Positions 36,020 through 45,428 of a stretch of 64,000 nucleotides of DNA are shown piece after piece. A model generated the notes under the pieces. The model was not told the origin of the DNA, did no database searches, and worked only from the letters and a program-made list of their open reading frames with translations. Each line of letters starts with the position of its first letter. The first letter of the stretch is position 1. This DNA comes from a virus (Duplodnaviria > Caudoviricetes): positions 14,072-78,071 of IMG/VR virus record IMGVR_UViG_2974719393_000001, one strand, 5' to 3'. The position numbers were made by a program, and so were the translations under genes.

Positions 36020-36409
36020 TTAGCGACGTAATTGGATGTGAGGCCAGTCTTGGATGGATTCCCAAAGACCACCGAATTCGATTTCAACACCTTCAATAAT
36101 AGCTGCTGTAATAAATGCTTGTACTACCTTACGAAAGTATTTCTGATTCCACGTAAGTTTACCACCAACCCAGACAGTAATGTCTAGTGCTTCGGCCTCG
36201 CCTTTGGCGTTTGGTAAATGGCGTGAATTCATAGTCCAAGACTTGCCTTCCGCTACTAGCTGCTTTTGGCGTTCTACAGTGCGCAGGGTTTCGCCAATAC
36301 CGAAGTCGTATTTTGTGAGCGTTAGCGCACGTTTGGCGACACGCTGTAGACGTTCGTCACAATCTGCTAGTCGAGTTAATGATTTTTGGCTAAATTTAAA
36401 ATTACTCAT
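36020..36409 (-). CDS. endolysin, M15 (L-Ala-D-Glu peptidase-like)
   Basis: FSQKSL.RL, LRTVERQKQLVAEGKSWTMNSRHL...ALD...DWPHIQL (Zn ligands H, D, H). Confidence 0.9.
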   Translation of the reverse strand: MSNFKFSQKSLTRLADCDERLQRVAKRALTLTKYDFGIGETLRTVERQKQLVAEGKSWTMNSRHLPNAKGEAEALDITVWVGGKLTWNQKYFRKVVQAFITAAIIEGVEIEFGGLWESIQDWPHIQLRR

Positions 36410-36457
36410 GATGTTCTCCTTCTAGGAAATATCCCAATCATAGCACGGAACTCTTCT

Positions 36458-37129
36458 ATGAAAACAAAACAACTCCAGACAACACCTACGCATCAGGCTT
36501 ATCAGCTTGCTCTGCATTCTCGTGAGTTATACCCAACAATTGCATACGGCTCAGCTGGTACTGGTAAAACATACGGTGCTTTAAAAGCGGGCATTAAGAT
36601 GCTTCAGGATAAGCAGATTAAACGTATCATTGTTACTCGCCCTAACGTTTCATTCGCTCAAACCAATGGTTTCTTACCAGGTACTGAGCGCGAAAAAATG
36701 GAACCGTGGGTACGTCCGATTCTTCAAAACCTCGGAAAGTTAGGAGTTAATTCAGGTACAGTCGAATCATGGGAAAATAACGGTACGTTATTGTTCTACC
36801 CGCTTGAGTTCGTTCAAGGTATGTCATTTGACGATGCACTCATCATTGTCGATGAATGTCAGAACATGACTTTTGACCAGTTGAAAGTATTCCTGACTCG
36901 TACCGGTTTTAATGCTCGTGTCGTACTAGCCGGCGACATTGCACAAATCTCTCCTAAGTTTGGTAACTCTGGTTTAGCCAAGTTACTCCATATGGTTGAA
37001 GTAATGGGCATCCCTTGTCAAACAATCGGTTTTGGTCGCGAAGACATCGTTCGTTCAGAGCAATGTAAGATGTGGATTGAAGCTTTCGAAGATTATGAAG
37101 CTGGGCTCTACCCAGATAAAGAAGAGTAA
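36458..37129 (+). CDS. phoH: PhoH-family ATPase
   Basis: GSAGTGKT, TRP, GFLPGT.REKMEPW, IIVDECQNMT, FLTR, GDIAQ, DIVRS. Confidence 0.93.
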   Translation: MKTKQLQTTPTHQAYQLALHSRELYPTIAYGSAGTGKTYGALKAGIKMLQDKQIKRIIVTRPNVSFAQTNGFLPGTEREKMEPWVRPILQNLGKLGVNSGTVESWENNGTLLFYPLEFVQGMSFDDALIIVDECQNMTFDQLKVFLTRTGFNARVVLAGDIAQISPKFGNSGLAKLLHMVEVMGIPCQTIGFGREDIVRSEQCKMWIEAFEDYEAGLYPDKEE

Positions 37130-37130
37130 A

Positions 37131-37158
37131 GAAAGGGGCCATTTGGCCCCTTATTTTT
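37131..37158. terminator. bidirectional intrinsic terminator
   Basis: AAGGGGCCA-TT-TGGCCCCTT-ATTTTT between convergent phoH and tail genes. Confidence 0.8.
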
Positions 37159-37444
37159 ATGCTGTCGGAATAGGATAACTATCAATAATAAACTGAATAG
37201 TCCCATCACTAGCGCCTGCCGGCATACGTACTGTGCCTACCTCATTCCATTGGTCATCCGAAAACAACTCAATAGAATAATCACCCTCACCAAGAGTGAA
37301 GCTGTAAGCCCCACCCGCAGCAAGAGTAATCGTAGCCTCAGCTGTAGCCAACACATCACCCGAGCCTTTTAAGCATTTGATGCGAACCTTGGAAGCCAAG
37401 GCTGTACCAATCGGGTTTGTTAAGTTACCTGAGATATTAGCCAT
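37157..37444 (-). CDS. stand-alone lambda Stf-like tail-fibre N-terminal domain protein
   Basis: ISGNLTNP.G...G.YSFTL..GDYSI...VGTV resembles the Stf N-terminal domain and the N-terminus of the upstream fibre; GGAGG SD. Confidence 0.7.
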   Translation of the reverse strand: MANISGNLTNPIGTALASKVRIKCLKGSGDVLATAEATITLAAGGAYSFTLGEGDYSIELFSDDQWNEVGTVRMPAGASDGTIQFIIDSYPIPTA

Positions 37445-37453
37445 GGGGCCTCC

Positions 37454-40231
37454 TTAACATAAGTCATTACCATTACGAAATAAAATCGCAGAAATAGTAT
37501 TATTTGAATAAGGGGATGCTATACACATACCACCATTTGCTGCACCATTCAAATCATCTAAATGCCCATAAATATTTATACTTCCTGTGGTGTTTGCGGG
37601 TATATTTATTGCAACTTGATGAATACCAGTAACCACGCATTGGTGTGTATTACCGCTTTGGGAACATGCCCAAATTTTAGCAGTATTAACAGCAGTGAAT
37701 TGTGTACTAGTCGTCACCAGTTTAGCTGATGCTTGGGTTGGGTTTCCCGCTTCACCTGTACTTGTAGCCCACACACTAATTAAGGCACTTAATTGAAGGG
37801 TGCGTGGATATGGCATAGAGCCGGATACACAAATCACTGCAAATAACGGCGTATTCCCCGTGGAGCCGGATTTTACTTGAGTTGTTGCAGCCTTATTCAA
37901 ACCAGATGTAACATCCCCAATAATACACTGAGCATATATGGAACCACAAAAACAACCTGTGGCAGCACTGATAGTGCCACGTACAATAGCATTGTTGAAC
38001 TCAGCATTACCACTACAATCAATTGCCCAACCAGTTGAACCAACAACGTAGTTACCGGATTTGATTTGAATTTGACTTTGACAAGGGTAAATGCGGTTTT
38101 CTGTCCAAGCACAAGCAGCAGTACCTTCGTTTACTGCACAAGTTTTTGCTGCGTCACCGCAAGATATACCACAGTTGCAGGCACTCACAGCTTTATTACA
38201 TGCATTGGTTTCAGCTGTTAATGCGCGGTCGTACGACTTGCCCATTAGTTCTTGAACGGAAGGGGCGTTACCCATCTCCCATAATCCTGGTTTGTAGAAA
38301 TACTGTATAGGGCCATTAACATCAGCAGAGTAATACCAAAAAACCCGTTGGGTAACGTTAGTAACAGTACCACTAGGTGGCATAACCCAATCTACACCAG
38401 ATGCTACTTTAGTGCCTGTGTCGGGGTCATAAACACCGGTAACACCTGTTTCTCCGGCAGTATACCCACGAGCATGCACTACACCAACGAGCAGATACCA
38501 CTTATTTAATTGAGGCAAATCCCCAGACCAAAAGTAAGGGTTATCTGACGTTTGTGTACCATCTGCACTGTTCATACCCACATATCTAGTAGTACCAAAA
38601 AATATTTGCCCATCTAATGTGGTTTGACACGCCCAAACAGCATGTAAGTAAGACTTGCTCACTGAGAAGTTTTGCGTAGCGCAGTACGTCCAACCCCCAT
38701 CAGGAGTGTCTGCAGTATTACTATTTGTTTTGGTACGCCAAACTAAGCCACCTTGTCCAAAAGGACCACCAGAAGTTGTACTCACATAGTTTTCATCGGA
38801 GTCTCCGTTTCTAATGAAAGTATTACAAGCATTATTATCAGAATCCCCTCGATACCCTACAACCCATAAGTTTGTATTAAGTAAGTTAGATACTGCACTG
38901 TCTGCAGTTAACTGGGCATTAGTGATTTCAGGCGGTACTGCACTAGCATCACAAAAAACCAAGCAAGTAGTATTAATACACCCAGTAATATAAGCATTTG
39001 AAGCAATAAGCGCACCGTTATCTGTTACACGAAAAGGAGCCGTCGGAATTCCTGTAGAATTGCGAGCATCCCAGTAACCTGCCCAAAATCGATAACCTTT
39101 ATTTAGGTTAGAGGTTTCAGACCCAGAATCATCCCCATTCATCCCTGCTGTTGTTATACCGGTTCCAGCTTTAATGGTTGTATTTGAAACTAACTTATCT
39201 CCTGTCAAACAACGAATATATGCTGCATCCATATATACACAATTACCAACTACTTGGAATGGGTAGCTTTGAGTGTTTGGATTACCGTTATGCATGATAA
39301 TTTTGTCAGCTTGCATCAAGATACAGGATTCTTGTACCGCAGCTTCCGTACAAGCAGTGGCCACGAGAGCAATACTTGCACACGCATCACCTGCTTGAGT
39401 AACAATTTCATAACCAGCTTGTTGTAAACCCTGGCCATTATCAATTACGTTCATACAGGTATAGACTGCAGCATCACAGGCTTGAACCATATTCACCAAG
39501 TTCGAACACACAATGCCTGCACAAGTGTCAGAATATGCTTCCGCAGTCTGAAGTACTTGGGCATCTCCAGCATCCATGTCAGTACATAGACAGGCAATCG
39601 CAATATCATTCGAAGTAGTGTACGCAGTTAGCGTAGAGCAGATGTCTACTAACGCTGTATTTAATGAAGTGGTACAGCAAGTAATCTCCGCACCAGTCGC
39701 ATCAGCATAAGCTTGACTTTCTAAGAGAACAGCCGCGTCACCGGCCACAATAGTGTCGGTTAACTCAGCAGAACAAGCCTGTAATCGGTCATTGGTATAG
39801 GTAGTCATCGCGGTACACACACCAGTGTCACCTTGTACTACCTGTTGTGATAGTTGAACAATACAAGTGTCCCATGCAGTTTCGAGCGCTGAAATACAGC
39901 CGCCAAAGTCATCACGGATACACTGTTCATTTTGATTCGGTAACGGAGTTGTGTAATACAACAGTTCCGAAATTGTATATGACGAGTCAGTCAGAGAATC
40001 GTTGGCTACCGTTGTACCGATATGCTCGAATGTATCTGTGAACATCACATATAGTTCATGAGTACCGAACGCGAGATTAAAGTCATAATTACCTTGGTTG
40101 TCGGTAAAATAAATGGCCTCGGAAGTCGTTAAGACATTACCGAAGCCACTTGAGGTTACAACTTTAATCGGGACGTTCTGTACCACTTGACTCATAGGTG
40201 TCTGCAAGACACCCAAAACTCGAATGGACAT
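37454..40231 (-). CDS. cysteine-rich tail fibre / host-specificity protein (Stf-like N-terminus, lambda J-like segments)
   Basis: Stf-like N-domain; GD..V.....AY.D coiled repeats; QADKI...PFQV; IKSGNYV.GSTGWAID.SGNAEFNN; about 41 Cys counted by hand. Confidence 0.85.
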   Translation of the reverse strand: MSIRVLGVLQTPMSQVVQNVPIKVVTSSGFGNVLTTSEAIYFTDNQGNYDFNLAFGTHELYVMFTDTFEHIGTTVANDSLTDSSYTISELLYYTTPLPNQNEQCIRDDFGGCISALETAWDTCIVQLSQQVVQGDTGVCTAMTTYTNDRLQACSAELTDTIVAGDAAVLLESQAYADATGAEITCCTTSLNTALVDICSTLTAYTTSNDIAIACLCTDMDAGDAQVLQTAEAYSDTCAGIVCSNLVNMVQACDAAVYTCMNVIDNGQGLQQAGYEIVTQAGDACASIALVATACTEAAVQESCILMQADKIIMHNGNPNTQSYPFQVVGNCVYMDAAYIRCLTGDKLVSNTTIKAGTGITTAGMNGDDSGSETSNLNKGYRFWAGYWDARNSTGIPTAPFRVTDNGALIASNAYITGCINTTCLVFCDASAVPPEITNAQLTADSAVSNLLNTNLWVVGYRGDSDNNACNTFIRNGDSDENYVSTTSGGPFGQGGLVWRTKTNSNTADTPDGGWTYCATQNFSVSKSYLHAVWACQTTLDGQIFFGTTRYVGMNSADGTQTSDNPYFWSGDLPQLNKWYLLVGVVHARGYTAGETGVTGVYDPDTGTKVASGVDWVMPPSGTVTNVTQRVFWYYSADVNGPIQYFYKPGLWEMGNAPSVQELMGKSYDRALTAETNACNKAVSACNCGISCGDAAKTCAVNEGTAACAWTENRIYPCQSQIQIKSGNYVVGSTGWAIDCSGNAEFNNAIVRGTISAATGCFCGSIYAQCIIGDVTSGLNKAATTQVKSGSTGNTPLFAVICVSGSMPYPRTLQLSALISVWATSTGEAGNPTQASAKLVTTSTQFTAVNTAKIWACSQSGNTHQCVVTGIHQVAINIPANTTGSINIYGHLDDLNGAANGGMCIASPYSNNTISAILFRNGNDLC

Positions 40232-40240
40232 GAAACCCCC

Positions 40241-40975
40241 TTATAGGCGTGGATTAACACGCATGCCTTCAAAGCCTTTACGAGTAATAGTACTTAATTT
40301 CTTGTAATACTTCACGCCGGATGTAGACGCTAGGTATGCCACTTGCGGCTTACCCATTGCTGCCGCAATGTGTAGCGCCGCCGTGTCACAAGAAACAACC
40401 ATATCTGCGATTTGGACGTAACGGATAAATACCGGTTCTGCGATTTCTTTAATCTGTTGACACACTTCCGTGTCGAAACCAAAGTCAACATCTGTACCTA
40501 GAATAAAGATTGCGTATTCCTTGTGGTATTTTTCAACCACTTCCAACACTTCCTTACGTGTCATGGAACGGGAGTCTGCTTCTCCACCTGAGCCATGAGG
40601 CTGTAACATAAGGATTGGTCGGTCCGAGTGTATAGACGCAGGAATGTGTCGTAAGTCGGGGCTGTACGGTAGGTTATCGCCTTTAGGTACGGTCAGACCT
40701 AGTTCCGTTAGAAATGCTTCGACGAGGTTGAGCTTTCCAGCGCGGTAGTCCAGATTCCAGTATGGTTCCGGTTTTACAACTTCAAAGCCTTCAAGCTTAT
40801 CTTGTAAATTCGGAGTACCAAGGGCAAGGACATTTAAACCAGAGCCTGTATAGGCGAATTCCCAACCACCGGTTAGGACAATCAATTCATGCTTCTTGTT
40901 CAACTCTTTTAACGCAGGGATAGCGCAGAGTACCCGGCCTAAGCCACCGTCAATAATCACAGCTAGTTTTTTCAT
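40241..40975 (-). CDS. GT9-like (heptosyltransferase fold) glycosyltransferase
   Basis: N-terminal KLAVIIDGGLGRVLCAIPAL, ILMLQPHGS..SRS, C-terminal VVSCDTAALHIAAAMGKPQV..AST. ATG 40975 is coupled to the upstream TGA. Confidence 0.85.
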   Translation of the reverse strand: MKKLAVIIDGGLGRVLCAIPALKELNKKHELIVLTGGWEFAYTGSGLNVLALGTPNLQDKLEGFEVVKPEPYWNLDYRAGKLNLVEAFLTELGLTVPKGDNLPYSPDLRHIPASIHSDRPILMLQPHGSGGEADSRSMTRKEVLEVVEKYHKEYAIFILGTDVDFGFDTEVCQQIKEIAEPVFIRYVQIADMVVSCDTAALHIAAAMGKPQVAYLASTSGVKYYKKLSTITRKGFEGMRVNPRL

Positions 40976-40976
40976 A

Positions 40977-41195
40977 TCAGTCTCGTGTACGTTGTAATTG
41001 TTGTTGTTCGACATATGCGCGGATATACGCAACGTCATTTGCCATTAATTCTAGCTTATCTACACGGTCATCCAAGTCATTAATTGACTGAGAGTTGACA
41101 GCTGTCTCGGTATGGGTAGTAAAAATACCGATTCCGCCTGCAGTTAATAAGCCAGCCAGAGCAGTAGTTACAATGGTACTTACTGGTAGGTTCAT
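40977..41195 (-). CDS. single-TM coiled-coil protein (holin/antiholin- or spanin-like)
   Basis: N-terminal hydrophobic helix, coiled-coil tail, ATGA overlap with the holin. Confidence 0.55.
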   Translation of the reverse strand: MNLPVSTIVTTALAGLLTAGGIGIFTTHTETAVNSQSINDLDDRVDKLELMANDVAYIRAYVEQQQLQRTRD

Positions 41196-42177: not shown

Positions 42178-44718
42178 TTACGCCAGATTTGGTAAAGCCC
42201 TCCAGTGAGAATAAGTTGTCTTTGCATTTACAGGTATAAAACGACCTGCTGGAACAGGTGTTGTAATTGTCAAGTCATTGCCTGATTTGGATGTCAACTG
42301 TGTCCAATGCCATGTACCGTTATCCATCTCAAAACCACATATACTACCAAACCCGGTTCCTAACCACCCTCCTGGATTGGTTACTATAACTACAGAATCC
42401 CCTGCGTTTGCTTGCGCACTTACAATAGAGGTGTCCTCATCAAAGAGACAAATATACCCAATAGGGACTCCTATAGCTGGAGTAGGGTCATCCCAACGGG
42501 AACCTGCATTAAAGTAGCCTTGGTCTGGTAAAGTATCTCTGAAAATCCTCTCTCTGTAGCGTTCAGGGGATGAAACTTCTCGCTCAAGGATAGCATGGTC
42601 TGTTACTGCAAAGATGCCGGGCGTTTCGCTTTCTAATGCGTAATCATTGGTATTACCTTTGAATTCATTACCTTGAATAATACCATTTTTCTGAGTGATA
42701 GTAGTAGATAATCCAAACGTACAGCCTGAGATTGTGTTACCTCTGACACTACAACGAGAACCTCGTATACGTATGCCCTGCTCTGTTATTACACCTGAAA
42801 CAAAATCAGGTTCTGTTAACGCACTCGGGTTCGTTATTGGCGTGTACGTCCTGATTACGTTACCGTTAAGAGAGGTATCTTCTGCTGAGCACGTAATACC
42901 ATACGGAGCACAGTTTAAAAGCAGATTATTAGCACAAATATTATCAGAATTAGCCACCGTAAAACTAGGGGTATTTGTTGAGCTTAGAATTATACCTCCA
43001 CGATTAGTTGCATTAATTACTGTATTACCTGTAATATTGCAAGCCCCGTGATAGATTGCTTGAATACCCCATGATACGTTTTTTACTAGGTTATTAGCAA
43101 TCACCCCATGGCCGTCATAATTGCCTTCACCCCAAGCAATACCACCACAATTTGCAGCGTTTGAAATTACATCTCCGTATACCGTATTACTAGTGATAAT
43201 ACAGTGACCTGTTGCTTGAATAGCCAAAGAATTGATATCTCCATTGCAACCAGAAACAATATTACCGGAGATGATACTTTGGTAACAACGCCCATTGAAG
43301 TTAATACCCGTATATTTACAATCATGGACTTGATTATTAACAACTTTAAAGTACCCATCGCCACTTTCCGCGCAAATACCAATCATGCTCATATCATACA
43401 CTTGGTTATCATGGACATTCACATTAATAACATTTCTAAAAAGAATACCACGACCTTTAGCTAAGCCGAAATTCTGATAGACACCTGTACCTTGTATTAC
43501 AATGCCATATACTTCAAAATTACGAAGTTCTGTACCTACAGCGGGTGTTGCAATACTCTCCTGGCTAGAGAAGTGCAACGGAATATGTGCATTAGCTTCT
43601 GTCTTAATTATACTTTTATACCCATCTCCGGAAATTGTCACATTGTTCCCATGAACCCACAGACAGGCTTTATTTTCATCTTGTGTTGTGACTTTGTAGT
43701 ACACATCCGCAGAGGGTATGTACACTCGACCGCCACCTTGTGCTATTACAAAATCAATGGCTGCTTGAATAGCAGCAGTATCATCTACAATGCCATCTCC
43801 TACAGCCCCAAAATCTTTTATATTCACAAAATCTGCAAAGTGATTAGCCAAAGTTCTAGCTGTAAGTCTGTCCGTCGGTGTAACCAAAGAATTAGAGGCA
43901 ACAATGGCTCCCCAATCATTACCATCCCAATACCTTAATTCACCTTGATTACCACCAAAATCCTGCCAATAAGTAGCACCAATTTGTAACGGCTGCCCTG
44001 TGTTATCAAGTAAAGGAGGAGAAGTTTTAGCACCGAGATATTTACTTTCAAAATTTGTGAGTACGACATCAGCCGCTGAAGCTGATAAAGCTGAAGAGTC
44101 AGCAAAAGCGGAAGCAGAGGCCGCACTCGTACTGGCATTCGTTTCAGATGTACCTGCAGCAGCTTCACTTGCAGCCGCAGCAAGTTCTGAATTACCAGCA
44201 TTAATCTCTGACAAAGCAGCAGCCGTTTCACTGTTTGCAGCATTATTCGCAGAGGTATTAGCGTTAGCTTCGGAGGTTGATGCATTTGACTCGGAGGTCG
44301 CGGCATTTGCTTCCGATGTAGCAGCAGCAACTTGAGAAGCTTGAGCCGCATCACGTGCATCTTGTGAATCACTCATTGCAGTAAGAGCGGAGTCACGGGC
44401 ATCCTGTGCTTGTTGTGCTGCCTGCACTACAGTATCGGCATCCGACACAACCCATACACCAGGGTCAGCATCGTAGTACTGCAAGTTGCCGTCAGTTTCA
44501 TTTAGGTAAAAGTTACCGGCTACAAGAGGTGCGCCATCACGACCTTCAGTTGGGGCATTTTCAAATGCACCCAAGTAAAGGTTCATAACGTCTACACCAC
44601 CAGCGGCAGCAATAACTTCTTCGATATTCTCAGCGACTAGTTCCACCGCATCATATGCAGTGTTATCGAACTTCTCGACTGGAGTCGTATTATTGTGGCT
44701 CTGTGGTACGCGAGGCAT
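42178..44718 (-). CDS. tailspike / depolymerase with right-handed beta-helix
   Basis: N4-type anchor (AYDAVELVAENI), Ala/Ser heptad stalk, VNIKDFGAVGDGIVDDTAAIQAAID, Asn-ladder repeats; AGGAG SD before ATG 44718. Confidence 0.88.
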   Translation of the reverse strand: MPRVPQSHNNTTPVEKFDNTAYDAVELVAENIEEVIAAAGGVDVMNLYLGAFENAPTEGRDGAPLVAGNFYLNETDGNLQYYDADPGVWVVSDADTVVQAAQQAQDARDSALTAMSDSQDARDAAQASQVAAATSEANAATSESNASTSEANANTSANNAANSETAAALSEINAGNSELAAAASEAAAGTSETNASTSAASASAFADSSALSASAADVVLTNFESKYLGAKTSPPLLDNTGQPLQIGATYWQDFGGNQGELRYWDGNDWGAIVASNSLVTPTDRLTARTLANHFADFVNIKDFGAVGDGIVDDTAAIQAAIDFVIAQGGGRVYIPSADVYYKVTTQDENKACLWVHGNNVTISGDGYKSIIKTEANAHIPLHFSSQESIATPAVGTELRNFEVYGIVIQGTGVYQNFGLAKGRGILFRNVINVNVHDNQVYDMSMIGICAESGDGYFKVVNNQVHDCKYTGINFNGRCYQSIISGNIVSGCNGDINSLAIQATGHCIITSNTVYGDVISNAANCGGIAWGEGNYDGHGVIANNLVKNVSWGIQAIYHGACNITGNTVINATNRGGIILSSTNTPSFTVANSDNICANNLLLNCAPYGITCSAEDTSLNGNVIRTYTPITNPSALTEPDFVSGVITEQGIRIRGSRCSVRGNTISGCTFGLSTTITQKNGIIQGNEFKGNTNDYALESETPGIFAVTDHAILEREVSSPERYRERIFRDTLPDQGYFNAGSRWDDPTPAIGVPIGYICLFDEDTSIVSAQANAGDSVVIVTNPGGWLGTGFGSICGFEMDNGTWHWTQLTSKSGNDLTITTPVPAGRFIPVNAKTTYSHWRALPNLA
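44050..44420 (-). repeat. Ala/Ser-rich (A..SE.NA) heptad repeats in tailspike stalk
   Basis: AATSEANAATSESNASTSEANANTSANNAANSETAAALSE... Confidence 0.7.
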
Positions 44719-44729
44719 GAGTAGTCTCC

Positions 44730-45428
44730 TTAAACCCAACCATTAGAATGGAACGCATTGTTCGCTTCTGGTGAAATATTATTGACCGTAATGTATTTTT
44801 GTAGGAACAACAACTGTTCCTCATACATCATCTTTTGGTTCATCGAAATAGCCTGAGCTTCTGCACTTTGGTTTGGCATGTATGCACGCCATGTAACGTA
44901 ACAAAGCAAAGCAGATAGCGCCACCTCAGGTAACTCCAATTCAACTGACGACGGGTCAGACACATCACTAAGTTTAGGGTGGTCAGCACGGTACTGCACA
45001 AATGTGCTATTACCTGTTACTGGTGTCGGAATCTGTACGCTCAGTGGAGTCGGAGTGTAGTAAGAATTTGACGCACTATTGTCATTTATTGGAACCAAAC
45101 AGCCTGCTTCATCATAGAAAGCTGTGATGGCCAAAATGTCATCAGTGAATTCATTACCATCATCGTCATCGATATACTTCTGCTCAGTGGATTCCGTGTT
45201 TGAGTACGCGTGCTTCGAGTTCAAGTAGTAAATAACTGTACCGTCATCTTGGTCAAGAATCAGTTCACTATCCTTGAGTGGGAATCGGGTGTAAATATCA
45301 CGCAGACCAAGCTGCGTGAAGTTAGCAAATTTTTGATAGGAATCAGTTTTAATCATTCCATTAACTACGTCACCGGTATTTGCCAGTGGGCCTAAAGCCA
45401 AGTAGTTAAATACATCCAGTAAAGTCAT
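44730..45428 (-). CDS. head-tail adaptor (N4 gp67-like)
   Basis: GL.DIYTRF.LK, YRADHP, LELP...ALL.YV, FHSNGWV end; downstream of terL. Confidence 0.8.
   Translation of the reverse strand: MTLLDVFNYLALGPLANTGDVVNGMIKTDSYQKFANFTQLGLRDIYTRFPLKDSELILDQDDGTVIYYLNSKHAYSNTESTEQKYIDDDDGNEFTDDILAITAFYDEAGCLVPINDNSASNSYYTPTPLSVQIPTPVTGNSTFVQYRADHPKLSDVSDPSSVELELPEVALSALLCYVTWRAYMPNQSAEAQAISMNQKMMYEEQLLFLQKYITVNNISPEANNAFHSNGWV

What the first reader, a model, noticed from the sequence alone, without database searches (positions are those of the whole stretch)
37454..40975. Candidate phage cysteine (S-)glycosylation system: Cys-studded tail fibre co-transcribed with a GT9 lacking the catalytic Asp
Seen: the 925-aa fibre has about 41 Cys (about 4.4%, hand count), while vRNAP and gp51 have none. 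The Cys are scattered at irregular spacing rather than forming metal-binding CxxC pairs, and none occur in the first ~103-aa attachment domain. In recognisable lambda-J/Stf-like motifs they sit where polar residues usually are: WAIDCSGNAEFNN (usually W.I.K.G), TGCFCGSIYAQCIIGDV (usually G.F.G.VYA.KI.GDV), YITGCINTTC, AYSDTC. The adjacent upstream gene (9-nt gap) is a GT9-fold enzyme (DTAALHIAAAMGKP) whose N-terminal loop reads GGLGR. Known: WaaC/WaaF and the protein heptosyltransferases TibC/Aah have Asp at this position (LGD/MGD) as the catalytic base that deprotonates the acceptor hydroxyl, and TibC/Aah show this fold can hyper-glycosylate adhesins. Inference: Arg here suits a thiolate acceptor, so the phage may decorate surface Cys of its fibre with a sugar (donor unknown, possibly ADP-heptose) for stability, shielding or receptor binding.
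Basis: partly seen in the sequence, partly recalled or inferred. Interest (0 to 1): 0.92.

Follow-up and report, generated by a model that had tools for sequence, protein, structure and literature searches.

The report
Cysteine-studded phage fibre with sugar enzyme
An N4-like marine phage has a tail fibre unusually rich in cysteine, encoded right after a heptosyltransferase-like enzyme whose usual catalytic aspartate is an arginine; this pairing recurs in many phages, so the enzyme probably decorates the fibre, perhaps through a sugar-to-sulfur bond, which no experiment has yet tested.

Summary
The 925-aa fibre (37454-40231, minus strand) has 41 Cys (4.4%), none in residues 1-103. The other virion proteins have 0-0.3%. 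Nine bases upstream lies a 244-aa enzyme with a GT9 fold (Z 16-18 to a Veillonella GT9, TibC, WaaF and WaaC). Its Arg14 aligns with the catalytic Asp13 of WaaC, and donor-side residues are kept.

The enzyme belongs to a large family that is almost entirely viral. GGxG[RK] is present in 149 of 161 stored members. Cys-rich ORFs from many unrelated families cluster beside it: 217 within 4 kb against 19 farther out, across 184 loci. In the reverse direction, 68 of 77 loci found through a Cys-rich protein carry the enzyme, and the other 9 are cut short. Fibre modules from phages without the enzyme have 0-1.2% Cys, mostly with polar residues at those sites.

The pairing is therefore well supported. 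S-linkage and the donor sugar are inferred. This scan noted the same pairing in at least 35 other genomes, and my literature searches found nothing published on it. What this window adds is a minimal two-gene version with cultured relatives.

The parts
40241..40975 (-). Arg-type GT9-fold glycosyltransferase-like enzyme, 244 aa. A longer ORF starts at 41038, but homologues start at 40975.
   Evidence: ORF list. Homologue N-termini. Pfam PF01075 25.2 bits, residues 206-241 of the 265-aa ORF only. phrog_8954 E 5.9e-22. Model pLDDT 88.8. VIA Z: 17.8 to 3tov, 16.4 to 4rap (TibC), 16.4 to 1psw (WaaF), 16.2 to 2h1f (WaaC); the next unrelated enzyme folds score about 10.
40934..40948 (-). GGLGR loop (G10 G11 L12 G13 R14). 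Arg14, codon 40934-40936, stands where GT9 enzymes have the catalytic Asp.
   Evidence: Adding WaaC and WaaF to alignment A2 puts their G-D13 on G13-R14. The motif is R in 138, K in 11 and D in 2 of 161 stored family proteins. Codon positions.
40760..40768 (-). E70-P71-Y72 motif of the N-domain. P71 and Y72 are invariant and E70 is at least 90% conserved in 60 diverse members. Candidate acceptor-side or alternative catalytic residues (inferred).
   Evidence: Alignment A2; codon positions.
40370..40387 (-). D197-T-A-A-L-H202, the donor-side motif matching WaaC V-D261-TGLSH. R136 (40568-40570) matches WaaC K192.
   Evidence: hhalign of A2 against WaaC and WaaF. WaaC numbering checked on the K-12 sequence. 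D197, H202 and R136 are conserved in at least 90% of A2.
40232..40240 (-). 9-nt spacer GGGGGTTTC with a Shine-Dalgarno-like G run, between the enzyme's stop and the fibre's ATG.
   Evidence: Sequence. No promoter-like or terminator-like site lies between the genes.
39923..40231 (-). Fibre residues 1-103: Cys-free N-terminal virion-attachment domain.
   Evidence: 0 Cys. phrog_2636 tail fiber, residues 1-62. Residues 1-98 match the collar spike protein 7kjk, E 1.5e-4.
37454..39922 (-). Fibre residues 104-925 plus the stop codon: the Cys-bearing shaft and tip, with 41 Cys. Contains a Phage_Tail_Tip domain and a J-like / pb4-like distal module.
   Evidence: Cys positions. PF09327 47.1 bits, residues 271-350. 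phrog_25191, phrog_5269 and phrog_2589 on residues 693-883. Homologous modules in Vibrio phages.
37157..37444 (-). 95-aa ORF after the fibre: a stand-alone tail-fibre N-terminal domain with 1 Cys. Same operon; role unknown.
   Evidence: PF08400 E 9.5e-4, below cut-off. phrog_2636 E 1.3e-7. A similar small ORF follows the fibre in Vibrio phage D505.
37133..37152 (.). G+C-rich hairpin with T runs on both strands: the likely end of the minus-strand late operon and of the convergent phoH-like gene.
   Evidence: Terminator-like scan.
40977..41195 (-). 72-aa ORF with a hydrophobic N-terminus. Its stop lies 1 nt before the enzyme's ATG. A homologue is fused to the enzyme in P0013.
   Evidence: ORF list. 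Junction sequence. P0013 (329 aa) in alignment A1. A similar 76-aa ORF sits in D505.

Best explanation
A late-operon pair. The phage makes a small GT-B enzyme of the heptosyltransferase (GT9) fold together with its distal fibre. The enzyme binds a host-made nucleotide sugar through a conserved GT9-type donor site (R136, D197, H202). It transfers the sugar onto many sites on the shaft and tip of the fibre in the cytoplasm, before or during assembly.

The acceptor is most likely the thiol of the scattered cysteines. The catalytic base of GT9 enzymes is replaced by a conserved cationic residue (Arg14; Lys in some relatives). A cationic residue would favour a thiolate, or a base-free mechanism. 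Cysteine richness is the one feature shared by the otherwise unrelated proteins encoded beside this enzyme family.

Shown here: the fold, the Asp-to-Arg change, the retained donor motifs, the gene pairing and its recurrence, and the Cys-poor state of homologous fibres in phages without the enzyme.

Inferred: catalysis, the fibre as substrate (my estimate about 0.65), sulfur as the linking atom (about 0.4), the donor, and the benefit to the phage (a hydrolysis-resistant glycan coat, thiol capping, or receptor binding). The confidence given is for the whole statement including the sulfur link.
For: 1. GT9 fold with a clear margin: Z 16.2-17.8 for four GT9 chains against about 10 for unrelated enzyme folds. 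One further row, 7wff_a, a plant NDH-PSI complex subunit, scored 14.5 and was not examined.
2. R14 aligns with WaaC and WaaF D13. D13A lowers HepI activity 4688-fold, and TibC Asp-110 is the proposed base (PMC5713226 and PMC4358343, passages).
3. The donor side is kept: D197 matches D261 and R136 matches K192. In 60 diverse members G10, G11, G13, P71, Y72 and H202 are invariant, and R14, E70, Q125, P126, G128, R136, D197, S198, T218, Y224 and R243 are at least 90% conserved.
4. The family is large and viral. There are 474 representatives at E<=1e-3. GGxGR occurs in 138 and GGxGK in 11 of 161 stored proteins. The nearest Atlas clusters are 80-100% viral. Only one true member turned up among contigs of 185,579 species genomes, on a phage-like MAG contig that also carries a 5.9% Cys ORF.
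5. Forward association over 184 loci. Cys-rich ORFs make up 25%, 32%, 45% and 18% of ORFs at positions -1 to -4, against 0-3% at +1 to +8. There are 217 within 4 kb (1311 kb of sequence) against 19 farther out (1421 kb). The density is higher near the enzyme in 17 of 31 usable 60%-identity clusters and lower in 1. These ORFs fall into 35 BLAST families.
6. Reverse association. 68 of 77 loci found with the main Cys-rich family carry the enzyme. The 9 without it end within 2.4 kb downstream.
7. This lineage. Eight close fibre homologues have 40-60 Cys and none in the attachment domain. Four of them (717, 680, 817 and 1320 aa) have longest contigs whose lengths equal those of four enzyme homologues. 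K479 and D505 keep 13 of 21 and 11 of 14 aligned Cys at 41% and 52% identity. Nine homologous modules from Vibrio phages without the enzyme have 0-9 Cys (0-1.2%); at 93 aligned Cys sites they show S 15, D 10, T 8, V 8, K 8, A 7, N 6, E 6 and only 3 Cys.
8. Cys counts show no even-number bias (68 even, 55 odd among 123 representatives, p = 0.28) and no CxxC excess.
9. Sugar-tailoring genes accompany the enzyme elsewhere: a carbamoyltransferase at +1 in 119 of 184 loci, plus sulfotransferases, epimerases and heptose genes.
Against: - No chemistry was tested. The role of Arg14 is a guess: GT-B enzymes can work without a base, or E70 could be the base.
- The association is not complete. 29 of 111 loci with at least 4 kb on both sides lack a Cys-rich ORF by my threshold. 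Nine of those 29 have a locally Cys-rich stretch, and about 20 have none.
- The loci are not independent. Most come from two T4-like aquatic subfamilies. At 50% enzyme identity there are only 17 clusters, 12 of them with a Cys-rich neighbour.
- Some of the 35 'families' are evident false positives, such as small zinc-ribbon-like proteins and a wrong-strand ORF (judged by eye).
- No sequence motif surrounds the Cys.
- Many Cys are fully conserved among close relatives: 112, 123, 153, 185, 186, 198, 237, 252 and 259. That would also fit a structural role.
- Serine plus threonine account for only 23 of the 93 residues facing the Cys, so 'Cys replaces O-glycosylation sites' is not specifically supported.
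- Exposure of the Cys could not be assessed.
- The gene order differs. Here the fibre lies downstream of the enzyme, whereas in most loci the Cys-rich genes lie upstream.
Confidence: 0.42

Rival explanations
1. The enzyme glycosylates the fibre on oxygen (Ser/Thr/Tyr) or another atom. The cysteines serve a separate purpose that goes with such fibres, for example inter-chain disulfides formed after lysis in oxic seawater, or metal sites.
For: The fibre is rich in Thr (11.5%) and Ser (7.6%). The known GT9 protein glycosyltransferases TibC and AAH act on adhesins (PMC4358343, abstract and passages). Several Cys are invariant among relatives. E70 could replace the lost base.
Against: It gives no reason why cysteine richness, in 35 BLAST families, follows this one enzyme family. 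There is no even-number bias and no CxxC pattern. Polar and charged residues occupy the Cys sites in Cys-poor homologues. The catalytic Asp needed to activate a hydroxyl is absent in 159 of 161 family proteins.
Confidence: 0.2
2. The GT9-like protein transfers a non-sugar group to the fibre's cysteines, or acts as a non-catalytic assembly chaperone that recognises Cys-rich fibres.
For: Tail-fibre chaperone genes often flank fibre genes; 4 of 150 neighbour ORFs match Phage_tail_APC. The catalytic Asp is lost. The Pfam match is weak and limited to 36 residues.
Against: The donor-site residues (R136, D197, H202, QPxG, T218) are conserved across 60 diverse members, which is unexpected for a pseudo-enzyme. 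Sugar-tailoring and sugar-nucleotide genes accompany the family.
Confidence: 0.12
3. The enzyme has nothing to do with the fibre. It modifies host lipopolysaccharide, another envelope glycan or phage DNA, and the fibre's cysteines are purely structural.
For: GT9 enzymes are classically LPS heptosyltransferases. Many phage glycosyltransferases modify O-antigen or DNA (recalled, not checked here).
Against: The gene sits inside the late structural operon, 9 nt from the fibre gene. The family is nearly absent from cellular genomes. Its position relative to the Cys-rich genes is fixed across loci, and in the reverse test all 68 enzyme genes lie on the same strand as the Cys-rich gene.
Confidence: 0.08

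Closest known systems
Bacterial autotransporter heptosyltransferases TibC and AAH with their adhesins TibA and AIDA-I (GT9; PDB 4rap, 4rb4; PMC4358343)
   Same: GT9-type GT-B catalytic fold (Z 16.4, 227 residues aligned). The enzyme is encoded beside a fibrous surface adhesin that it modifies at many sites in the cytoplasm (paper abstract and passages).
   Different: TibC uses Asp-110 as base and acts on Ser; here the equivalent position is Arg. The model aligns only to TibC residues 96-351, so the parts that make TibC an iron-containing dodecamer have no counterpart in this 244-aa protein. The family here is viral, and its partners are Cys-rich.
LPS heptosyltransferases WaaC (HepI) and WaaF (HepII), CAZy GT9, Pfam PF01075 (PDB 2h1f, 2h1h, 2gt1, 6dfe, 1psw)
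   Same: Best structural matches. Shared D-[ST]-x-x-x-H donor motif and a basic residue at the K192 position.
   Different: D13 is present in all heptosyltransferases (PMC5713226) but is Arg or Lys here. This enzyme is about 80 residues shorter. Sequence similarity is confined to the C-domain (hhalign probability 80-94%; no significant phmmer or hmmsearch hit in the PDB). Its acceptor is probably a protein rather than Kdo2-lipid A.
S-glycosyltransferases of glycocins (SunS for sublancin, ThuS, PalS; S-linked glucose on Cys of small peptides)
   Same: These give enzymatic sugar-to-cysteine linkage in bacteria, with the enzyme encoded next to its substrate gene (PMC6405829 and PMC12457901, abstracts in the search listing).
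   Different: As I recall (no call tested it), those enzymes are GT2, GT-A fold, and modify one or a few Cys of a peptide of about 40 residues. Here the enzyme has a GT-B/GT9 fold and the candidate substrate is a 925-aa virion fibre with 41 Cys.
Virion O-glycosylation in mycobacteriophages (Freeman et al. 2023, Cell Host Microbe)
   Same: Phage-encoded glycosyltransferases decorate the phage's own structural proteins.
   Different: I saw that paper only as an entry in two reference lists. It is not held, and its content is recalled: capsid and tail-tube proteins, O-linked, different GT families, actinobacterial hosts.

Membership tests
CAZy GT9 / Pfam PF01075 (heptosyltransferases) | GT-B two-Rossmann fold closest to solved GT9 structures | tested here: met
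   VIA Z 17.8 (3tov), 16.4 (4rap), 16.4 (1psw), 16.2 (2h1f), with rmsd 3.0-3.5 over 226-231 residues. Unrelated enzyme folds score about 10, and one unexamined row (7wff_a) scores 14.5. The Foldseek top 10 are all WaaC, WaaF or TibC.
CAZy GT9 / Pfam PF01075 (heptosyltransferases) | Pfam model match above the gathering score | tested here: met
   25.2 bits against a cut-off of 22, but only residues 206-241 against profile positions 179-214. This is a marginal, C-domain-only match.
CAZy GT9 / Pfam PF01075 (heptosyltransferases) | Catalytic Asp after strand 1 (WaaC D13, TibC D110), present in all heptosyltransferases | tested here: not met
   Arg14 aligns with WaaC and WaaF D13. R or K occupies this position in 149 of 161 family proteins. 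The role of the Asp comes from PMC5713226 and PMC4358343.
CAZy GT9 / Pfam PF01075 (heptosyltransferases) | Donor-side residues equivalent to WaaC K192 and D261 | tested here: met
   D197 matches D261 and R136 matches K192, a conservative Lys-to-Arg change. Both are at least 90% conserved.
CAZy GT9 / Pfam PF01075 (heptosyltransferases) | ADP-heptose as donor | not testable with these tools
   This phage has no CTP_transf_like or SIS_2 gene. HldE-like and GmhA-like genes lie near the enzyme in 40 and 15 of 184 loci, which is suggestive only for those lineages.
BAHT family (TibC/AAH protein heptosyltransferases) | Extra N- and C-terminal parts that give the iron-binding dodecamer | tested here: not met
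   The 244-aa model aligns to TibC residues 96-351 of a 381-residue chain, so there is no sequence left to form the extra parts. Oligomeric state was not predicted.
BAHT family (TibC/AAH protein heptosyltransferases) | Encoded beside the fibrous surface protein that it hyperglycosylates | tested here: inconclusive
   Adjacency is met (9-nt gap) and recurs. Glycosylation of the fibre itself is untested.
Glycocin S-glycosyltransferases (SunS/ThuS type, GT2) | GT-A fold with Glycos_transf_2 domain | tested here: inconclusive
   Pfam found only PF01075, and the fold-search lists show GT-B enzymes only. An unlisted family is not formally excluded.
Lambda J / tail-tip fibre proteins (Pfam PF09327 Phage_Tail_Tip), for the fibre | Pfam match above the gathering score, plus a virion-attachment N-domain | tested here: met
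   PF09327 47.1 bits against a cut-off of 22, residues 271-350. The N-domain matches phrog_2636 and the collar spike protein 7kjk. The distal module matches J-like gp24 (23gd_D) and a T5-like pb4.

The most novel reading that the evidence does not exclude
A clade of heptosyltransferase-fold enzymes found almost only in phages has exchanged its catalytic Asp for Arg or Lys and become a protein S-glycosyltransferase. It attaches sugars to dozens of cysteines on receptor-binding fibres, giving virions a sulfur-linked, glycosidase-resistant glycan coat. The system would be widespread in aquatic phages (N4-like vibriophages, T4-like cyanophages and others). Fibres would evolve by gaining Cys at surface positions as glycan attachment points. 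It would be the first S-glycosylated virus particle and the first GT-B/GT9 enzyme known to glycosylate protein cysteines.
Probability: 0.38. Interest if true: 0.9.

Novelty: new variant of a known kind. Interest (0 to 1): 0.8.

Why it matters
If the enzyme sugar-coats the fibre, this is a virion-modification system of marine phages that no paper found in my searches describes. It would act on the proteins that decide host recognition. If the bond is to sulfur, it extends S-glycosylation from a few small bacteriocins to large virus structures. It would also define a new catalytic solution within the GT-B fold. Cysteine content of fibres would become a readable genomic marker of glycan decoration.

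This window gives the simplest form of the system: two genes and no tailoring enzymes. It sits in an N4-like phage whose relatives are cultured, namely Vibrio phages of the K479 and D505 groups (enzyme 52-55% identical). More distant cultured carriers are Aeromonas phage HJ05 and Synechococcus phages S-CAM1 and S-CAM3. The question can therefore be settled by mass spectrometry on existing isolates.

Tried and rejected
- Sequence searches of the enzyme against PDB chains gave only chance hits, both as a single sequence and as profile A1. The fold search was needed.
- hhalign of A2 against single WaaC and WaaF sequences aligned the C-domain only. The Arg/Asp correspondence therefore rests on MAFFT --add and on the matching strand-loop-helix position.
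- Megablast of the region against the phage collection found no match.
- The search for related loci with profile A1 found one IMG/VR locus. With the diverse A2 it returned an error, because no stretch was conserved enough. I then used three subfamily alignments, A3-A5.
Their co-residence is inferred from equal contig lengths.
- The full-length fibre monomer model had mean pLDDT 35.1. It says nothing about burial of the Cys. A heptad guess on its helices (12 Cys at g, e, f or d positions) is too weak to use.
- The idea that the Cys replace Ser/Thr O-glycosylation sites is not specifically supported: S plus T make up 23 of 93 facing residues.
- No sequon was found around the Cys.
- Genome-collection scans: A4 found nothing. 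A5 found 7 loci, of which one is a true family member and the others are C-domain matches to ordinary GT9-like genes.
- The phage's own genome gave no match for Carbam_trans_N, CTP_transf_like, SIS_2, Sulfotransfer_3 or Epimerase.
- Literature searches found no paper describing Cys-rich phage fibres paired with a GT9-like enzyme, or S-glycosylated virions. Subscription journals and supplements are not covered. PMC10527164 is not held.
- Complex prediction, read laying and the look-up of sequencing runs were not used. An enzyme-substrate pair is a poor case for the first, and expression was not in question.
This is the same report with that field filled in.

Full report
**What is there.** The window comes from a complete 78,071-bp N4-like phage record (vRNAP ORF of 3550 aa). 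On the minus strand a late operon runs from an 853-aa beta-helix tailspike (42178-44739) through three small ORFs. It continues into a 244-aa enzyme (40241-40975), a 925-aa fibre (37454-40231) and a 95-aa ORF. It ends at a hairpin at 37133-37152. The enzyme's stop and the fibre's ATG are separated by 9 nt (GGGGGTTTC), with no promoter-like or terminator-like site between them. Homologues of the enzyme begin at the ATG at 40975, which follows the stop of a 72-aa ORF after a single base.

- The fibre has 41 Cys in 925 residues (4.43%), irregularly spaced, with none in residues 1-103 and none in 561-677.
- The 74 non-overlapping ORFs of the window average 1.17% Cys. The large virion proteins are nearly Cys-free: 0 of 3550, 0 of 422, 2 of 684, 1 of 400, 0 of 387 and 1 of 716.
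- The fibre carries a Phage_Tail_Tip domain (PF09327, 47.1 bits) and tail-fibre PHROG matches.
- Its N-domain resembles the collar spike protein of 7kjk.

**The enzyme.**
- Pfam sees GT9 only weakly (25.2 bits over 36 residues), and PDB sequence searches fail.
- A confident model (pLDDT 88.8) matches GT9 structures: Z 17.8 (Veillonella GT9, 3tov), 16.4 (TibC), 16.4 (WaaF) and 16.2 (WaaC). One unexamined row, 7wff_a, a plant NDH-PSI complex subunit, follows at 14.5. Unrelated enzyme folds score about 10. Foldseek agrees.
- Adding E. coli K-12 WaaC and WaaF to a 60-member family alignment places their G-D13 on G13-R14.
- D13 is the proposed base of all heptosyltransferases, and D13A lowers activity 4688-fold. 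TibC Asp-110 plays the same part (passages of PMC5713226 and PMC4358343).
- The donor side is kept: D197 matches D261 and R136 matches K192.
- Across 60 diverse members G10, G11, G13, P71, Y72 and H202 are invariant. R14, E70, Q125, P126, G128, R136, D197, S198, T218, Y224 and R243 are at least 90% conserved.
- This looks like a working nucleotide-sugar site joined to an altered acceptor side.

**The family.**
- A profile search of 1.84 billion representatives found 474 proteins at E<=1e-3, and 140 at 1e-10.
- Of the 161 proteins stored at that point, 138 have GGxGR and 11 have GGxGK. Only 2, both long multidomain proteins, have GGIGD.
- In GenBank phages the enzyme occurs in 52 records: Vibrio 29, Synechococcus 14, Prochlorococcus 4, 'Marine' 3, Aeromonas 1 and 'Cyanophage' 1.
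- The nearest Atlas clusters are 80-100% viral.
- Two pattern scans over one genome for each of 185,579 species gave one true member. It lies on a phage-like MAG contig, two genes after a 575-aa ORF with 5.9% Cys.

**Association with cysteine-rich proteins.**
- In the four annotated phage groups that I opened, the neighbours are Cys-rich:
  - K479 tail protein: 39 Cys in 1643 aa, with up to 16 per 200 aa.
  - D505 tail protein: 41 Cys in 1756 aa.
  - HJ05 upstream protein: 23 Cys in 559 aa.
  - S-CAM3: three proteins with 36, 35 and 24 Cys in about 300 aa each.
- I fetched 188 IMG/VR loci with A1 and three subfamily alignments. A motif rule recognised an enzyme ORF in 184 of the 192 loci then held, including the four annotated ones.
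- I defined a Cys-rich ORF as at least 120 aa, at least 8 Cys and at least 3.5% Cys. Such ORFs are 25%, 32%, 45% and 18% of ORFs at positions -1 to -4. They are 0-3% at +1 to +8 and 3-7% at -5 to -8.
- Pooled, there are 217 such ORFs in 1311 kb within 4 kb of the enzyme, against 19 in 1421 kb farther out. Cys content is 2.23% near and 0.90% far.
- At the level of 60%-identity enzyme clusters, the density is higher near the enzyme in 17, lower in 1, and not different in 13 of 31 usable clusters. At 50% identity it is higher in 11, lower in 0, of 16 usable.
- The 217 proteins fall into 35 BLAST families, the largest with 144 members. By eye several small families are false positives (zinc-ribbon-like proteins, a wrong-strand ORF). 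Many others are unmistakable fibre-like or glycine-rich proteins with 6-13% Cys.

**Reverse test.** With an alignment of the largest Cys-rich family I fetched 77 IMG/VR loci. Of these, 68 contain an enzyme-family ORF (hmmsearch E<=1e-10). All 68 are GGxGR and on the same strand, and 30 have an enzyme sequence not seen in the first set. The 9 without an enzyme end within 2.4 kb downstream of the Cys-rich gene. Within reach of these data, Cys-rich proteins of that family do not occur apart from the enzyme.

**This lineage.**
- Eight close fibre homologues (40-80% identical over the full-length alignment) have 40-60 Cys (4.5-7.2%) and none in the attachment domain.
- Four of them have longest contigs with the same lengths as four enzyme homologues: 79246, 76984, 78308 and 14268.
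- More distant homologues of the N-domain have 0.1-1.0% Cys.
- K479 and D505 keep 13 of 21 and 11 of 14 aligned Cys at 41% and 52% overall identity.
- Nine homologous modules from Vibrio phages that were not among the 52 enzyme-bearing records have 0-9 Cys (0-1.2%). They include siphoviruses, a T5-like pb4 and other N4-like phages.
- At 93 aligned Cys positions those modules show S 15, D 10, T 8, V 8, K 8, A 7, N 6, E 6, G 4 and only 3 Cys.
- So Cys richness appears where the enzyme is present. It sits largely at positions that are otherwise polar, and it is then maintained.

**Against a purely structural role.** Among 123 representatives of the Cys-rich proteins, 68 have an even and 55 an odd Cys count (p = 0.28). 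Spacing decays smoothly with no CxxC peak, and the window fibre itself has 41 Cys. These facts do not exclude inter-chain disulfides.

**Donor and tailoring.**
- This phage has no carbamoyltransferase, cytidylyltransferase-like, SIS, sulfotransferase or epimerase gene, so any donor must come from the host.
- Elsewhere a NodU/CmcH-type carbamoyltransferase follows the enzyme at +1 in 119 of 184 loci.
- HldE-like and GmhA-like genes lie nearby in 40 and 15 loci.
- Sulfotransferases, 2OG oxygenases, epimerases, GT25 and GDP-mannose dehydratase appear among 150 scanned neighbours.
- This is the company of a glycan-building enzyme. It makes ADP-heptose plausible in some lineages, but it remains unproven here.

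**Mechanism and odds.** I think it most likely that the enzyme glycosylates the fibre in the cytoplasm (about 0.65), and that the cysteines are the acceptors (about 0.4). Arg or Lys at the old base position would stabilise a thiolate or the leaving group. The main rival is O-glycosylation with the cysteines serving another role. Smaller rivals are a non-sugar transfer or a chaperone role, and a target unrelated to the fibre.

**What weakens the case.**
- No chemistry was done.
- The association is incomplete: 82 of 111 loci with 4 kb on both sides have a Cys-rich ORF, 9 more have a locally rich stretch, and about 20 have none.
- The sample is phylogenetically lumpy.
- There is no sequon.
- Some Cys are strictly conserved.
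- The fibre model failed.

**Novelty.** Six full-text searches found no description of this pairing or of S-glycosylated virions. Known neighbours are TibC/AAH (GT9, O-linked, bacterial adhesins), glycocin S-glycosyltransferases (small peptides) and mycobacteriophage virion O-glycosylation. The last was seen only in reference lists. This scan's own notes report the same pairing in at least 35 other genomes. Those are unchecked AI notes and I did not count them as evidence. The tests above were all run here. This window contributes the minimal two-gene form of the system, with cultured relatives.

Noticed in passing
window 40977-41195 (minus strand); protein P0013: The 72-aa ORF with a hydrophobic N-terminus just upstream of the enzyme has a homologue that is fused in frame to the enzyme in one metagenomic relative (P0013, 329 aa). 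This hints that the small protein works with the enzyme, or else reflects a gene-calling or frameshift artefact.
   Followed up: partly
window 37157-37444 (minus strand): A 95-aa stand-alone copy of a tail-fibre N-terminal attachment domain follows the fibre gene. A similar small ORF follows the fibre in Vibrio phage D505 (L002 12357-12635).
   Followed up: partly
IMG/VR loci L006-L192; S-CAM3 locus L004 7154-8848: A NodU/CmcH-type carbamoyltransferase sits directly downstream of the Arg-type GT9 enzyme in 119 of 184 loci. The pair is more constant than the heptose genes. Relatives of this enzyme class carbamoylate sugar hydroxyls and, in HypF (recalled), a cysteine thiol, so its target here is an open question.
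   Followed up: partly
alignment A8 (for example L016 7587-8669): The largest Cys-rich family (144 members, about 300-490 aa, 6-12% Cys) shares a conserved core (C-x-W-T-V-P-A-G ... F-Q-I-W-G-A-G-G ... Y-T-L-C-A-G-C-A). It resembles the glycine-rich domains of phage fibre proteins, here filled with cysteines.
   Followed up: partly
L004 10234-10590 and 41 of 184 loci: A small cupin annotated 'cysteine dioxygenase' in S-CAM3 recurs 3-8 genes downstream of the enzyme in 41 loci. That is curious next to Cys-rich proteins.
   Followed up: no
window 42178-44739 (minus strand): A second receptor-binding protein lies in the same operon: an 853-aa tailspike with right-handed beta-helix and pectate-lyase-like domains and 15 Cys (1.76%). 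It is above the other virion proteins but far below the fibre.
   Followed up: no
window 36386-37129 (plus strand): A PhoH-like gene converges on the fibre operon and shares its bidirectional hairpin terminator. The same phoH-endolysin-portal neighbourhood is seen in Vibrio N4-like phages VBP32 and 1.097.O.
   Followed up: no
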